Positions 51,515-57,714 of a stretch of DNA of 64,000 bases are shown one piece after another. The notes beneath the pieces were generated by a model that searched no databases, was not told where the DNA came from, and worked only from the letters and a program-made list of their open reading frames with translations. Every line of letters starts with the position of its first letter. Position 1 is the first letter of the stretch. A program made the position numbers and the translations under genes. The DNA lies in assembly GCF_009914755.1 (NCBI RefSeq), contig NC_060925.1, one strand, 5' to 3'. Source of the DNA: the human T2T-CHM13v2.0 reference genome, Homo sapiens.

Positions 51515-52502
51515 AAAGGCTTTGAAGAAATAGGGACATTTTAGTTTTTATTATTAATTTGCTGGGGAAAAAATTCCATCTTTGGTGTCTTACATTATTG
51601 ATTTCTTTGGGTTCCAGTGCTAAAGGCTAACTTCCAAATGTGAATGTAAAACCTGTTAAAATCTTAGCCCAAATACCTTTGCTTAGTTAGCCTTTACAGG
51701 GCTTTATCAGTTGCCATCCAGGCCCAATGGGTGTTAGTAGAGGTAGGCATGGAGGAAAGTGGTTCCATACCTTCACGGTAGGAGCCAGGGGGCTTTAAGT
51801 GAGGTGGACCCAATCACCTACTTCAACCATCTTGCTTTGATACAACCCTGGAGGCAGCTAACCCTTACCCAAAATCACAGGTCTAAAAATAAATGGAGTA
51901 GCAGCTCTTTCTCATTACCAGGCTTCTGTTTGTTTCCACATTTGCCTGTTTATTTGTTTCATTGGCTTTTAGGCAGAGAGCATTCTGTAAAATATTTGGA
52001 ATAGAAAGAAAGATAGAGCACTGAAAATGCAAAGGCACAAGATATAAATCAGAACTACAATTTCCTTGGTGTTGCTCTTGTTTCCTTATCAATGATGTAG
52101 ATTCTCAGGCATACTCTCAGAGGCTTGAGAAAGCCCTTCTTAAGGACCTTGAACCTTATTTAACAAACACACAATCCTCCATCACCTGGATTCTGGTTAC
52201 CAAAGAAATGGAAACTGGGCCAAAAATGTACACAATGCTCATGTGCAAAATCCTAAAAGAAACAGAAGCTGGCAACAAAGGATAAGTTACCCTGATGGGC
52301 TCATTTTTTCCTAAACACTCCGTAGTTTAAGAATCATTTTTGTTATTAATTGCTTAAACATGATTTTCAAATTTATATAAACATTAGTTAATATTGACTG
52401 GAAAAGACTTAGAATTTTTTTCCATTTAATTAAGAAGCAAAAATACCAGGGTAATTATTAAACAAATCAGTGGAAAGGTCAGAGGCTTTAAGTTACAAAT
52501 TC

Positions 52503-53510
52503 TGCAGGCGGCAAGCCACCCAGGCACCGAGGCAAGAGACCAAGGACACGAGCTGTTCCAGTATAATAAAATATAAAACAAGAATAGTTATACCAGATAT
52601 AGATCTTAGATATGATCATATATGAATATCATTAATCATTAGTTGGCAGTAATTACTCTTTATCCCAATATTATAATAATCCTCACTCTACAATCATAAC
52701 CTAGGAAAAGCCAGGCCATACAGAGATAGGAGCTGAGGGGACATAGTGAGGTGTGACCAGAAGACAAGAGTGCGAGCCTTCTGTTATGCCCAGACAGGGC
52801 CACCAGAAGGGCTCCTTGGTCTAGCGGTGACGCCAGCGTCTGGGAAGACACCCGTTGCCAGGCAGACTGTGGTCTAGCGGTAGCGAAAAGTGTCAAGGAA
52901 CAACACCCGCTACTTAGCAGACCGGGAAAGGGAGTCTCCTTTTCCCCGGGGGAGTTTAGAGAAGACTCTGCTCCTCCATCTCTCGTGGAGGGCCTGACAT
53001 CAGTCAGGCTTGCCTGCAGTTATCCGGAGGCCTAACCGTCTCCCTGTGATGCTGTGCTTCAGTGGTCACACTCCTAGTCCGCCTTCGTGTTCCATCCTGT
53101 ACACCTGGCTCTGCCTTCTAGATAGCAGTAGTAAATTAGTGAAAGTACTAATAGTCTCTGATATGCAGAAATAATGGCGTAAGCTGTCTTTCTCTCTGTC
53201 TCCTCTCCCTCTCTGCCTCGGCTGGCAGGCAGGGAAGGGCCCCCTGTCCAGTGGACACGTGACTCACGTGACCTTACCTATCATTGGAGATGACTCACAC
53301 TCTTTACCCTGCCCCTTTTGCTTTGTATCTGATAAATAACAGTGCAGCCAGACATTCGGGGCCACTACCGGTCTCCACGCATTGGTGGTAGTGGTCCCCC
53401 GGGCCCAGCTGCCTTTTCTTTTATCTCTTTGTCTTGTGTCTTTATTTCTACACTCTCTAGTCGCGGCACACAGGGAGAGATCCACTGACCCTGTGGGGCT
53501 GGTCCCTACA
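52503..53510 (+). mobile_element. HERV-K LTR (LTR13-type, HML-4), 5' LTR, 1008 bp
   Basis: TG...CA termini (tgcaggcggcaagcc...ggtccctaca), matches recalled LTR13 consensus; followed by PBS and betaretroviral gag. Confidence 0.9.
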
Positions 53511-53512
53511 TC

Positions 53513-53531
53513 TGGCGATCTGACGTGGGGC
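53513..53531 (+). other. Degenerate tRNA-Lys primer binding site
   Basis: tggcgatctgacgtggggc, 2 nt after the LTR end; resembles TGGCGCCCAACGTGGGGC. Confidence 0.7.
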
Positions 53532-54610: not shown

Positions 54611-54818
54611 GCCGTGGCAGCCTGGTTTTCAGGCCCATGAAAGACCTGCTCAGCAGGTAATCTGGTCTCAACCTGGCTTTCAGTTTTTCAACTCTCCTTC
54701 TATTCAAAATTCTACCCCTTTTTCTGCTCCTGGTCCAGTCGCGACTGCTGTTGCCAATACTACCATTGCTGCTCATAAGCAACAAATTACATACATCCCT
54801 GAAGACGACACTCCGCTT

Positions 54819-56282
54819 ATGAGGGCTATAGTTCAGGCAAGGGAATATGGGGATCCCGAAGCCTGGCAATTTCCTGTAATTTTACAACCTCCAGTACCTG
54901 CCACCCCAACAGTACAAAATCACCCACAGCCTGTTGTTGATCCTGCCCAGCAGGCGGCTGACCCCGCAGCTCAACAGGATCAAGAGGCTGATAATCAAGC
55001 CCCTCAGCCCGAAACTCAGGCTGCTCAGGGAAATAATCAGCCTCCGCAATTGCCGGCTCCTGGGGCACAGCCAATACCTGGCATTCCCGCTGTTCAGGCG
55101 GTAGTTCAGCCTGACCCCATACATCCAGGTCAGGTTCAGCTACGCCCTGCTACTTGGGAAAGTTTTTCTTTTAAATTCCTCAAAGATTTTAAGGAATCAG
55201 TGAAACAATATGGCACCAACTCTCCTTTTGTCCGTTCCACATTAAAAGGCTTAGCAGAAGATAAACGTTTGGTGCCCTATGATTGGGAAATTTTAGCAAA
55301 ATCAGTCTTATCTAAATCCCAATATTTACAGTTCAGGACTTGGTGGGTTGATGCTGTCCAGGAACGCATTCATCTTAATCAGGGCTCCAATCCTCCTGTT
55401 AACGTTACAGCTGACCAGTTACTGGGAATGGGTCAATGGGCTGCAATCCGACACCAAACTATACTAAATGATGAGGTTGTTGAACAACTGCAAAAATGTT
55501 GCTTAGATGCTTGGGACAAAATTCAAGATGATGGTAAAGTATGCCCATCTTTCACAGCTGTCAGACAGGGACAACACGAACCCTACCCAGACTTCATTGC
55601 TCGTCTTCCAGACGCAGCAGAAAAGGCTATTCCTGATAGCCACGGCCAAAGACTTGTTGTAGAACTTATGGTTTATGAACAAGCAAATCCAGATTGTCAG
55701 GCGGCTATTCGCCCCGTCAAAGGCAAAATTCCACTTGGTGGTGATATACTCACCTCCTACGTTAAAGCCTGTGAAGGGGTGGGAGGAACTCTGCATACAG
55801 CAATGATTATGGCACAAGCTATGGCCTCTATTCTAATGCCTGGACAATTCTCTGGCCAATGCTTCCTATGCGGCCAGAAGGGACTTGCAAAAAGAAATTG
55901 CCCTCGGCGTGCAGGTCGCAGTCCTTTACATCACCAACAACAACAACAAAAAACTTTTCAGCAACAAGACGCCCCACCTTCTACTGTATGCCCACGATGC
56001 CAAAAGGGCTTTCACTGGGCATCTCAATGCCATTCCAGATTTGATATTGATGGCAATCCTTTACAGCCTTTTAAAAATCAGGGAAACGGGATGAGGGGCC
56101 GGCCCCAGGCCCCTTTAAACAATGGGGCATTCCTCAACTCTCAGCCCCTGGCGTCCAGCCAGACGGGAGCCTTCCCAGTTCAATCCATTCAACCTCCACC
56201 CCAATTCCCACTTCAGCGATGTAGGGACCAGCCCCACAAGGTCGATGGGTCTCTCCCCGTGTGCCGCGACGAGAGAGTATAG
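54819..56282 (+). CDS. Open Gag CA-NC reading frame (487 aa from first in-frame ATG), last ~20 aa from the antisense LTR
   Basis: Stop-free frame 54537-56282 in ORF track; first Met at 54819 in weak Kozak context; expression unknown. Confidence 0.35.
   Translation: MRAIVQAREYGDPEAWQFPVILQPPVPATPTVQNHPQPVVDPAQQAADPAAQQDQEADNQAPQPETQAAQGNNQPPQLPAPGAQPIPGIPAVQAVVQPDPIHPGQVQLRPATWESFSFKFLKDFKESVKQYGTNSPFVRSTLKGLAEDKRLVPYDWEILAKSVLSKSQYLQFRTWWVDAVQERIHLNQGSNPPVNVTADQLLGMGQWAAIRHQTILNDEVVEQLQKCCLDAWDKIQDDGKVCPSFTAVRQGQHEPYPDFIARLPDAAEKAIPDSHGQRLVVELMVYEQANPDCQAAIRPVKGKIPLGGDILTSYVKACEGVGGTLHTAMIMAQAMASILMPGQFSGQCFLCGQKGLAKRNCPRRAGRSPLHHQQQQQKTFQQQDAPPSTVCPRCQKGFHWASQCHSRFDIDGNPLQPFKNQGNGMRGRPQAPLNNGAFLNSQPLASSQTGAFPVQSIQPPPQFPLQRCRDQPHKVDGSLPVCRDERV
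56081..56087 (+). other. gag-pro -1 frameshift slippery site G GGA AAC
   Basis: In-frame CAG GGA AAC after the second zinc knuckle, followed by GC-rich sequence, as in betaretroviruses. Confidence 0.7.
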
Positions 56283-57227
56283 AAATAAAGACACAAGACA
56301 AAGAGATAAAAGAAACGGCAGCTGGGCCCGGGGGACCACTACCACCAATGCGTGGAGACCGGTAGTGGCCCCGAATGTCTGGCTGCGCTGTTATTTATTG
56401 GATACAAAGCAGAAGGGGCAGGGTAAAGAGTGTGAGTCATCTCCAATGATAGGTAAGGTCACGTGGGTCATGTGTCCACTGGACAGGGGGCCCTTCCCTG
56501 CCTGCCAGCCAAGGCAGAGAGGGAGAGGAGACAGAGAGAAAGACAGCTTACGCCATTATTTCTGCATATCAGAGACTATTAGTACTTTCACTAATTTACT
56601 ACTGCTATCTAGAAGGCAGAGCCAGGTGTACAGGATGGAACACGAAGGCGGACTAGGAGTGTGACCACTGAAGCACAGCATCACAGGGAGACGGTTAGGC
56701 CTCCGGATAACTGCAGGCAAGCCTGACTGATGTCAGGCCCTCCACGAGAGATGGAGGAGCAGAGTCTTCTCTAAACTCCCCCGGGGAAAAGGAGACTCCC
56801 TTTCCCGGTCTGCTAAGTAGCGGGTGTTGTTCCTTGACACTTTTCGCTACCGCTAGACCACGGTCCACCTGGCAATGGGCGTCTTCCCAGACACTGGCGT
56901 CACAGCTAGACCAAGGAGCCCTTTTGGTGGCCCTGTCTGGGTGTAACAGAAGGCTCGCACTCTTGTCTTCTGGTCACACCTCACTATGTCCCCTCAGCTC
57001 CTATCTCTGTATGGCCTGGCTTTTCCTAGGTTATGATTGTAGAGTGAGGATTATTATAATATTGGGATAAAGAGTAATTACTACCAACTAATGATTAATG
57101 ATATTCATATATGATCATATCTAAGATCTATATCTGGTATAACTATTCTTGTTTTATATTTTATTATACTGGAACAGCTCGTGTCCTCGGTCTCTTGCCT
57201 CGGCGCCTGGGTGGCTTGCCGCCCACA
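56220..57227 (-). mobile_element. Second LTR13-type LTR, 1008 bp, inverted relative to the first
   Basis: Reverse complement aligns without indels to 52503-53510, ~30 substitutions by manual count. Confidence 0.93.
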
Positions 57228-57714
57228 AAATTTAATTCATTTGAATATCTCCCCTCTAAGAGCTCATTCTTGCAATTATTTTTTACAAACATCTTGGAGA
57301 TATTTTCCTTTGTAAAAATCCTTTCTGTTTATATTAATGAAAACCTGTTGTTTCGAGTCTGATGGGAAGATCCCAGAAAGTGAGAATCACTGAGAGGTTG
57401 CCTGGCTCCTTATTAATCAGGTTTTTTTGGGAAGTATTGGCACATTCCAATTTTCTTAATAATTTAGGACAAGTCCAACCTATTTGAGTGTGTCAACAAA
57501 GAAGAAATGTGATATTAAAAAAAGAAAGAAAAAAGATGTGAGGTATTTTGTATGCCTAGAAACAGCACTAAGACATTTACTGACATCAACAGCTTCCAAT
57601 TCTGACAGTGTTAGAAAGGGAATTTTCAATGGCTGCTTTGAAATAACCCAGAAGACATTTTACACCACAATGAAATCTGCATTCTACTATGTCAGTAACA
57701 TCAGACAAGATGAG

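What the first reader, a model, noticed from the sequence alone, without database searches (positions are those of the whole stretch)
52497..57233. HERV-K element with an inverted sister LTR: U3 ends at both host junctions, inside one TSD
Seen: two 1008-bp LTRs (52503-53510 +, 56220-57227 -) point toward each other around PBS+gag. pol and env are missing and pro stops ~130 nt after the frameshift site. The outer flanks are AAATTC (52497-52502) and AAATTT (57228-57233), a 5/6 match. The inverted LTR's own flanks (CAGCGA / AAATTT) do not match, so it is not an independent solo LTR. Its U5 CA terminus joins the end of gag with nucleotide precision. Established: proviruses carry direct LTRs with one U3 and one U5 host junction, HERV-K makes 6-bp TSDs, and autointegration joins an LTR CA end into internal viral DNA, including in inverted orientation. 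Inference: this is a germline fossil of an aberrant integrase reaction, with U5 autointegrated into gag and two U3 ends integrated into the host. Simple post-insertion deletion or LTR-LTR recombination does not give precise LTR ends at both junctions.
Basis: partly seen in the sequence, partly recalled or inferred. Interest (0 to 1): 0.9.

Follow-up and report, generated by a model that had tools for sequence, protein, structure and literature searches.

The report
Endogenous retrovirus with inverted twin LTR
A fossil retrovirus in human chromosome 1 has its second long terminal repeat flipped and joined to the end of gag, a second independent copy of the same odd design sits on chromosome 12, and both look like mis-made viral DNA that integrase inserted by two "left" ends.

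Summary
Two 1008-bp LTRs (52503-53510 +, 56220-57227 -; 30 mismatches, no indels) face each other around PBS and gag. U3 termini abut host DNA on both sides, inside AAATTC/AAATTT. The two LTRs are sisters in a 42-LTR tree.

New here: chromosome 12 carries a second element of the same design. It has a perfect 6-bp duplication (TCAAAT) in an Alu tail, and its gag/LTR junction lies 69 nt upstream of the window's. Its LTRs and gag group with two normal proviruses, not with the window element, so the architecture arose at least twice.

In both elements the inverted LTR is preceded by GA. This is the complement of the TC that lies between the U5 CA and the PBS in 6 of 6 readable 5' LTRs. The joined U5 end was therefore unprocessed, whereas integrase strand transfer would join at CA.

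Best reading: before integration, an LTR-gag piece was joined blunt to the natural U5 terminus of an LTR-length unit, by host end joining or an RT template jump. Integrase then inserted the two U3 ends.

I found no description of this in eight literature searches. Ape and monkey orthologues could not be checked.

The parts
52497..52502 (.). left copy of the target-site duplication, AAATTC
   Evidence: Sequence. Matches 57228-57233 at 5 of 6. The family rule of a 6-bp duplication holds in 18 of 28 solo LTRs.
52503..53510 (+). 5' LTR, U3-R-U5, starts TGCAGG and ends CTACA
   Evidence: It is the sister of the right LTR in the tree (100/97*). 27 of 28 solo copies start TGTGGG, so TGCA here is two later changes.
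53511..53512 (+). TC dinucleotide between the U5 CA and the PBS
   Evidence: Present in 6 of 6 readable 5' LTR/PBS junctions of the family.
53513..53530 (+). primer-binding site, TGGCG...GGGG
   Evidence: Sequence. The assignment to tRNA-Lys is recalled, not tested.
53660..56217 (+). gag. It starts at ATG 53660, is broken by a stop at 54011-54013 and by frame changes up to 54405, and is open from 54405 to the junction.
   Evidence: ORF list. Pfam Gag_p10 (E 1.6e-24), Gag_p24 (9.2e-39), Gag_p24_C and zf-CCHC_5.
54417..54628 (+). four copies of a 54-nt repeat inside gag
   Evidence: the repeat finder family D1. Copy number differs between loci.
56081..56087 (+). G GGA AAC heptamer, in phase for a gag-pro -1 frameshift, followed by a GC-rich hairpin
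   Evidence: Sequence and frame. MFE hairpin (z-score -1.54, not significant).
56087..56217 (+). first 130 nt of the pro frame, overlapping the gag tail. Internal sequence ends at 56217.
   Evidence: Alignment with six intact copies that continue AATTTGTGCC.
56218..56219 (-). GA, the complement of the TC beyond the U5 CA: the mark of an unprocessed U5 terminus
   Evidence: The same GA sits at the chromosome 12 junction, where the internal sequence would read TG.
56220..57227 (-). inverted LTR, with U5 towards gag and the U3 terminus (TGTGGG) at the host junction
57228..57233 (.). right copy of the target-site duplication, AAATTT
   Evidence: No extra dinucleotide lies between the LTR end and the duplication, so the outer ends were processed normally.

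Best explanation
This is a germline fossil of a mis-assembled retroviral cDNA that was then integrated normally, but by two U3 ends.

Shown:
- The element is 5' LTR-TC-PBS-gag(to 56217)-GA-inverted LTR.
- Both outer ends are processed U3 termini flanked by one 6-bp duplication.
- The inner joint carries the complete, unprocessed U5 terminus, with no microhomology.
- The same design arose independently on chromosome 12, with its junction 69 nt upstream.

Inferred:
- During or just after reverse transcription, the viral DNA existed as two double-stranded parts. One was the left LTR with gag, ending where the elongating plus strand had reached. The other was an LTR-length unit with natural U3 and U5 termini (the right LTR). 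The stretch between them was still single-stranded or was lost.
- The gag end was joined blunt to the U5 terminus of the LTR unit, flipping that unit.
- This left a linear DNA with a U3 terminus at each end. Integrase processed both and inserted them in concert.

How the joint was made: I lean to host non-homologous end joining, the reaction that makes 2-LTR circle junctions (about 45%). The alternative is an end-to-end template jump by reverse transcriptase from the stalled plus strand onto a free LTR-length plus strand (about 35%). The sequence cannot tell these apart.

The element has no evident present function. As a 1-kb inverted repeat inside a transcribed lncRNA locus it could fold into a long RNA hairpin.
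For: Structure and the single duplication:
-.

Sister LTRs:
- Window pair 100/97*, path 0.036. Each LTR is the other's best genome match, 97% against 95% or less for the rest.

Second element, G000:C12 about 56464236-56469395:
- Same order of parts, perfect TCAAAT/TCAAAT duplication, flanks forming one continuous Alu tail.
- There the flank repeat is direct, not inverted.

Independence of the two elements:
- The chromosome 12 LTR pair is nested with the normal proviruses of chromosomes 19 and 16 (7-row clade, 100/99*). The window pair lies elsewhere.
- The tree of the 5' part of gag agrees (97/96*).
- The AU test rejects all four LTRs as one clade, p 0.015.
- The junctions differ.

Unprocessed inner end:
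- GA precedes TGTAGGG in 2 of 2 elements.
- TC follows CTACA in 6 of 6 readable 5' LTRs.
- Intact copies read AA (window site) and TG (chromosome 12 site) at those positions.

Processed outer ends:
- The duplication abuts TG/CA directly, although the plus strand would start GA|TGTGGG after the PPT.

Family rule:
- The 6-bp duplication is the usual one.
Against: - No orthologous empty site could be inspected, so the duplication in the window rests on a 5-of-6 match of a palindromic hexamer.
- No unintegrated DNA of this structure is known to me, and none turned up in my searches.
- The model needs an LTR-only duplex with a usable U3 end, which is inferred, not observed.
- The two junctions lie within 69 nt of each other in roughly 8 kb of internal sequence (about 2% by chance). 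No model here explains that.
- The AU test group was named after the tree had been seen.
- The window's LTR pair has no mismatch at LTR positions 367-716 but 11 in positions 285-366. Gene conversion between the arms may therefore have occurred, and could inflate the sister signal.
Confidence: 0.75

Rival explanations
1. Integrase autointegrated the processed U5 CA end into gag of the same viral DNA, and two U3 ends were then integrated into the host.
For: - The outer ends are integrase-type junctions with a 6-bp duplication.
- Autointegration is an established side reaction (recalled).
- By my own working through the geometry, a single-end attack on the opposite strand at gag gives a strand that reads LTR-gag(antisense)-inverted LTR.
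Against: - Both independent junctions keep the two nucleotides beyond CA. Strand transfer uses the CA-3'OH, and the 5' dinucleotide is lost in repair.
- The chance that GA appears by accident at both junctions is about 1 in 256.
- Concerted autointegration gives circles, which have no ends left to integrate.
Confidence: 0.07
2. A post-integration host rearrangement of a normal provirus. Either a replication fold-back copied the 5' LTR in reverse after gag, or an inversion was followed by a deletion.
For: - In the window the inverted repeat runs 6 nt into the left flank and 2 nt past U5, as a fold-back copy of 52497-53512 would.
- AAATTT is palindromic, so the window alone cannot exclude this.
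Against: - Both breakpoints would have to fall within 6 nt and 2 nt of LTR boundaries, and this would have to happen twice.
- On chromosome 12 the flank repeat is direct (TCAAAT both sides) and the two flanks form one uninterrupted Alu tail. No host DNA or 3' LTR was therefore lost.
- Host processes do not recognise LTR ends.
Confidence: 0.06
3. Two separate insertions: a solo LTR or second provirus in antisense orientation landed in or beside a first provirus, and deletions followed. This is how antisense LTRs inside proviral chains were read by Vargiu et al. 2016 (supplement passage seen).
For: - Antisense LTR13 copies in 5 RetroTector chains were counted as secondary integrations (PMC4724089 supplement file 1, passages only).
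- Nested insertions are common.
Against: - The inverted LTR has no duplication of its own (CAGCGA against AAATTT).
- The two LTRs are sisters, closer to each other than to any of 40 other copies. The same holds on chromosome 12.
- The outer flanks match as one duplication at both loci.
Confidence: 0.03
4. A non-autonomous inverted-LTR lineage that copied itself, so that the chromosome 1 and chromosome 12 elements descend from one founder event.
For: Same architecture, same GA, and junctions only 69 nt apart. A 69-nt deletion ending exactly at the GA would turn the window form into the chromosome 12 form.
Against: - LTR and gag trees place the chromosome 12 element with normal proviruses and apart from the window element. 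AU p is 0.015.
- A transcript of such an element has no 3' R in sense orientation for the first strand transfer (inference).
- The supposed deletion would have to end exactly at the joint.
Confidence: 0.05

Closest known systems
Canonical betaretrovirus-like HERV-K provirus (the normal members of this family at G000:C19 22.02 Mb and C16 2.68 Mb)
   Same: Same LTR, TC-PBS, gag with p10/p24/zinc fingers, G GGA AAC heptamer, 6-bp duplication and processed outer termini.
   Different: The second LTR is inverted and joined to gag. There is no pol, env or PPT. There are two U3 host junctions instead of one U3 and one U5.
2-LTR circle junction (host end joining of unprocessed viral DNA ends; recalled)
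   Same: A blunt joint that keeps the dinucleotide beyond CA, with no microhomology.
   Different: Here the U5 end is joined to an internal gag end, not to the U3 end. The product stayed linear and was integrated.
Autointegration products (recalled: intramolecular strand transfer by integrase)
   Same: An LTR end joined to internal viral DNA, possibly inverted.
   Different: Those join at the processed CA and give circles. Here the dinucleotide is kept in 2 of 2 junctions and the product had two free U3 ends.
Defective HIV-1 proviruses with inversions or asymmetric LTRs (Joseph et al. 2022, PMC9278108; passages read)
   Same: Rearranged proviruses that arise before integration through errors of reverse transcription. 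In that study 2 proviruses (1.3% each of the de-duplicated set; 88 sequenced in all) carried inversions, and 26 of 88 had unequal LTRs.
   Different: In the passages I read, those keep a U3 end and a U5 end, and no whole inverted LTR with U3 at both host junctions is described.
DIRS-type retrotransposons (search listing and abstract of PMC3950715)
   Same: Retroelements whose terminal repeats are inverted.
   Different: In DIRS this is the normal design, used with a tyrosine recombinase. Here it is an accident of a DDE-integrase retrovirus whose normal copies have direct LTRs.

Membership tests
Betaretrovirus-like endogenous retrovirus (HERV-K supergroup) | LTRs bounded by TG...CA | tested here: met
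   TGCAGG/TGTGGG ... CTACA. 27 of 28 solo copies start TGTGGG.
Betaretrovirus-like endogenous retrovirus (HERV-K supergroup) | Gag with p10 matrix, p24 capsid and CCHC zinc fingers | tested here: met
   Pfam PF02337, PF00607, PF19317 and PF14787, all above their cut-offs.
Betaretrovirus-like endogenous retrovirus (HERV-K supergroup) | gag-pro overlap with a -1 slippery heptamer | tested here: met
   G GGA AAC at 56081-56087 in the correct phase. The -1 frame is open up to the junction.
Betaretrovirus-like endogenous retrovirus (HERV-K supergroup) | 6-bp target-site duplication | tested here: met
   18 of 28 solo LTRs are perfect at 6 bp, 3 are 5 of 6, 5 are perfect at 5 bp, 2 are unclear. Window 5 of 6, chromosome 12 6 of 6.
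LTR13 / HERVK13 (HML-4) by name | Match to the Repbase/Dfam LTR13 and HERVK13-int models | not testable with these tools
   No repeat library is on hand. About a dozen loci bear internal sequence, which fits the 7+5 HML4 chains of Vargiu et al.. That is consistency only.
Canonical provirus | Two LTRs in direct orientation, one U3 and one U5 host junction | tested here: not met
   The LTRs are inverted and U3 lies at both junctions.
Nested solo LTR | Its own matching duplication on both sides of the LTR | tested here: not met
   CAGCGA against AAATTT.
Integrase autointegration product | Viral end joined at the processed CA, dinucleotide lost | tested here: not met
   GA is retained at 2 of 2 junctions. 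TC is present in 6 of 6 5' LTRs.
Host fold-back inverted duplication | The flank beyond the copied arm is the reverse complement of the other flank | tested here: not met
   The window is ambiguous because the hexamer is palindromic and there is no match beyond 6 nt. On chromosome 12 the repeat is direct, and the reverse complement does not match.

The most novel reading that the evidence does not exclude
This retrovirus repeatedly made, and integrase repeatedly inserted, linear DNAs with a U3 terminus at each end.

If so, the two fossils would be the first natural record that:
1. Concerted U3-U3 integration happens in vivo.
2. An LTR-length duplex with both natural termini exists as a discrete, integration-competent intermediate. 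In that case some 'solo LTRs' could be direct insertions rather than recombination scars.
3. Plus-strand synthesis has a preferred stopping zone 60-130 nt past the gag-pro frameshift signal, comparable to a lentiviral central flap.
Probability: 0.3. Interest if true: 0.8.

Novelty: new variant of a known kind. Interest (0 to 1): 0.66.

Why it matters
Retroviral DNA synthesis and integration are known mostly from cell culture, so natural records of side products are rare.
- Two independent germline insertions with the same odd design show that integrase accepts two U3 ends in vivo.
- They also show that an unprocessed U5 end can be joined to internal viral DNA before integration.
- This bears on how defective HIV proviruses and rearranged vector genomes arise.
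- It bears on whether antisense LTRs inside ERV annotations are always secondary insertions, as has been assumed.
- It bears on how kilobase-scale inverted repeats, which are potential sources of double-stranded RNA and of genome instability, enter genomes in one step.

Tried and rejected
- **Paralogous empty site.** Both 350-nt flanks are unique in the genome. There is therefore no paralogue and no segmental duplication.
- **Other inverted-LTR members.**
  - Of the 8 loci of 79% identity or more that hold the 3' part of gag, only the window and chromosome 12 have the junction. The other six read on into pro.
  - A 5'-truncated env fragment on chromosome 3 abuts non-ERV sequence containing Alu-like stretches, not an LTR.
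  - The chromosome 9 copy has pol joined to the last 35 nt or so of a direct U5.
  - A full inventory failed.
- **Internal PPT as the cause of the hot zone.** The tract AGGGAAACGGGATGAGGGG (56080-56098) only loosely resembles the family's PPT AAAAAGGGGGGAGA. I kept this as an idea only.
- **RNA structure at the junctions.** The fold of 56075-56225 gives z -1.54, which is not significant. The chromosome 12 junction site falls at the 3' foot of a 5-bp hairpin, which I do not weigh.
- **Microhomology at the joints.** There is none on chromosome 12, and at most the A and T that follow the G in the window.
- **Literature.** Eight counted searches gave no description of an LTR-gag-inverted-LTR element with a duplication. 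Older subscription papers on defective retroviral DNA are not in the library.
- **Dating.** I give raw divergences only. The clustered mismatches make an age unreliable.

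
Full report
**What is in the window**

The sequence and the repeat scan show one long inverted repeat. Its arms are 52497-53512 and 56218-57233, 1016 nt long, 97% complementary and 2705 nt apart.

- The LTRs proper are 52503-53510 (+) and 56220-57227 (-). 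They differ at 30 of 1008 positions with no indel. 27 of the differences are transitions, 11 of them in CpG context.
- The left LTR ends CTACA and is followed by TC, a PBS-like 18-mer and gag.
- Pfam finds Gag_p10 in the first open stretch, and Gag_p24, Gag_p24_C and a CCHC zinc finger in the 604-codon stretch 54405-56217.
- gag is broken near its start by a stop at 54011-54013 and by frame changes up to 54405.
- A G GGA AAC heptamer lies at 56081-56087, in the phase needed for a -1 shift. Internal sequence ends 130 nt later.
- There is no pol, env or polypurine tract.
- The right LTR is upside down, with U5 towards gag and its U3 terminus at the host junction.
- The host flanks are AAATTC and AAATTT.

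**The inner junction**

Six copies elsewhere in the genome read straight on from CTTCAGC into AATTTGTGCC. Internal sequence in the window therefore ends at 56217.

The next two bases, GA, are not gag. They are the complement of the TC that separates the U5 CA from the PBS. That TC is present in all 6 of 6 5' LTR/PBS junctions I could read. The inverted repeat duly extends those 2 nt.

The end that was joined to gag is thus the full, unprocessed U5 terminus. This is the same as the 5' end of minus-strand DNA after primer removal (established retrovirology, recalled).

**A second element**

The search with the 3' part of gag found a copy on G000:C12 that stops matching early. Alignment shows the following.

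- It has the same architecture: LTR, TC, PBS, gag, then GA and an inverted LTR, about 5160 bp in all.
- Its junction lies 69 nt upstream of the window's, equivalent to window position 56148. The internal sequence there would have continued TG, not GA.
- It is flanked by a perfect TCAAAT/TCAAAT. The two flanks together read as one uninterrupted Alu tail.
- The flank repeat is direct, and the reverse complement does not fit.

This removes the ambiguity in the window, where AAATTT is its own reverse complement. Both window flanks are unique in the genome, so neither element is part of a segmental duplication.

**Are the LTRs sisters, and are the two elements related?**

*LTR tree.* I built a maximum-likelihood tree of 42 LTRs. 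The rows were:
- the two LTR pairs of the inverted elements;
- the LTR pairs of two normal proviruses;
- six more 5' LTRs;
- 28 copies from the 40 best-scoring of 609 candidates.

The results were:
- The window pair is sister (100/97*, path 0.036).
- The chromosome 12 pair is sister (100/99*, path 0.014).
- The chromosome 12 pair is nested with the normal proviruses of chromosomes 19 and 16 in a 7-row clade (100/99*).
- The window pair lies in another part of the tree.

*gag trees.* A tree of the first 600 nt after the LTR agrees: chromosomes 12, 19 and 16 group at 97/96*, with the window outside. The 529-nt 3' gag tree does not resolve the four.

*AU test.* Forcing the four LTRs into one clade costs 67.8 log-likelihood units (AU p 0.015). 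The caveat is that the group was named after the tree had been seen.

Together with the different junctions, this means the architecture arose at least twice.

**What kind of event**

The outer junctions are ordinary integrase junctions. The duplication abuts TG and CA directly, although the family's plus strand would begin GA|TGTGGG after the PPT. The duplication is 6 bp, as in 18 of 28 solo LTRs. Of the other ten, 3 are 5 of 6, 5 are perfect at 5 bp and 2 are unclear.

The alternatives fare as follows.
- A host rearrangement would have to break within a few bases of LTR boundaries four times over, and on chromosome 12 it would have to leave the Alu tail intact.
- A nested solo LTR would have its own duplication, and it would not be the sister of the 5' LTR.
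Both junctions keep the dinucleotide, and the chance of GA at both by accident is about 1 in 256.

What remains is a pre-integration joint between the gag end of an LTR-gag duplex and the natural U5 terminus of an LTR-length unit. This produces a linear DNA with U3 at each end, which integrase then inserted.

The joint is blunt. There is no microhomology on chromosome 12 and at most two ambiguous bases in the window. It could have been made in either of two ways.
- *Host end joining.* This is the reaction that makes 2-LTR circle junctions (recalled). It would follow if the cDNA still had a single-stranded middle between the growing plus strand and the right LTR, and that middle was lost.
- *An end-to-end template jump.* Reverse transcriptase would jump from the stalled plus strand onto a free LTR-length plus strand that lacks the PBS copy.

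I lean slightly to end joining. The sequence cannot decide between the two.

**Unexplained**

- The two junctions lie 69 nt apart in an internal region of roughly 8 kb (about 2% by chance), 60 and 130 nt past the frameshift heptamer. A GC-rich hairpin follows the heptamer, but the fold is not significant. A purine-rich tract there only loosely resembles the PPT.
- Mismatches between the window's arms are clustered. There are none at LTR positions 367-716 and 11 at positions 285-366. This suggests some gene conversion and makes LTR dating unsafe.

**The family is rearrangement-prone**

- A chromosome 19 locus (12.118 Mb) has 257 nt of U3, then short antisense pol and gag pieces, then the env end and a 3' LTR, all inside one Alu.
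- The chromosome 8 provirus carries two small antisense pieces.
- The chromosome 9 copy joins pol to the last 35 nt or so of U5.
- Four loci share a set of internal deletions.

**Literature**

Eight searches found no account of such an element.
- Vargiu et al. 2016 (PMC4724089; passages of the main text and of supplement file 1) list 7+5 HML4 chains. They count 5 antisense LTR13 inside chains and read antisense LTRs as secondary integrations.
- Joseph et al. 2022 (PMC9278108; passages) report HIV proviruses with inversions and unequal LTRs, ascribed to errors of reverse transcription. In the passages I read they do not report this form.
- A teleost study mentions one foamy-like insert with "inverted LTR", without analysis.
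- Older papers on defective retroviral DNA are outside the searched library.

**Verdict**

The integrase-autointegration reading of the inner joint is not supported. The finding is a new variant of defective provirus, of clear interest to retrovirologists. It awaits the orthologue check.

Noticed in passing
L042 (G000:C12:56460000-56469999), element at about 4236-9395, minus strand: A second LTR-gag-inverted-LTR element. It has a perfect TCAAAT duplication in an Alu tail, a junction 69 nt upstream of the window's, and an LTR pair with 12 mismatches and 2 gaps.
   Followed up: yes
L075+L040 (G000:C19:12113501-12119590): A complex relative inside one Alu. It reads 257 nt of U3, then a 46-nt pol piece and a 237-nt gag piece in antisense, then the env end and a full 3' LTR. 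The flanks look like one CpG-decayed duplication (CGGGGT / TAGGGT).
   Followed up: partly
G000:C8:146237904-146243800 (table): The chromosome 8 provirus has two short antisense pieces (query 3611-3805 and 54-197) inserted between query positions 1865 and 1874. It also has many extra copies of the 54-nt gag repeat.
   Followed up: no
L038 (G000:C9:103068793-103072368), locus 3345-3400: Internal sequence (pro/pol) is joined directly to the last 35 nt or so of a direct-orientation U5, then host DNA. This is a large 3' deletion reaching into the LTR.
   Followed up: partly
G000:C1:3.31 Mb, C4:77.01 Mb, C24:17.86 Mb, C11:4.56 Mb: Four loci share the same internal deletions (the gag match stops at window 53715 and resumes near 54400; pol resumes at query 2039-2045). 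This looks like a deletion variant that multiplied. The chromosome 1 copy also shows an antisense pol piece near where its 3' LTR should be.
   Followed up: no
window 53461-53624: The annotated exon of lncRNA LOC100130331 starts at an AG preceded by a pyrimidine run inside U5. It ends at GT 53625-53626, just past the PBS, where a retroviral splice donor would be expected. The transcript spans both LTR arms, so its precursor could fold into a hairpin of about 1 kb.
   Followed up: no
window 52503-53510 against 56220-57227: Mismatches between the arms are clustered. There are none at LTR positions 146-284 and 367-716, and 11 at positions 285-366. This may reflect gene conversion between the inverted arms.
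   Followed up: partly
L003-L030 (28 solo LTR loci): Five of 28 solo LTRs have a perfect 5-bp rather than 6-bp flanking repeat (L015, L019, L021, L024, L028).
   Followed up: partly
window 54417-54628: A 54-nt repeat in gag is present in 4 copies here, in more copies on chromosome 12 and in many more on chromosome 8. It is a variable-number coding repeat within the family.
   Followed up: no
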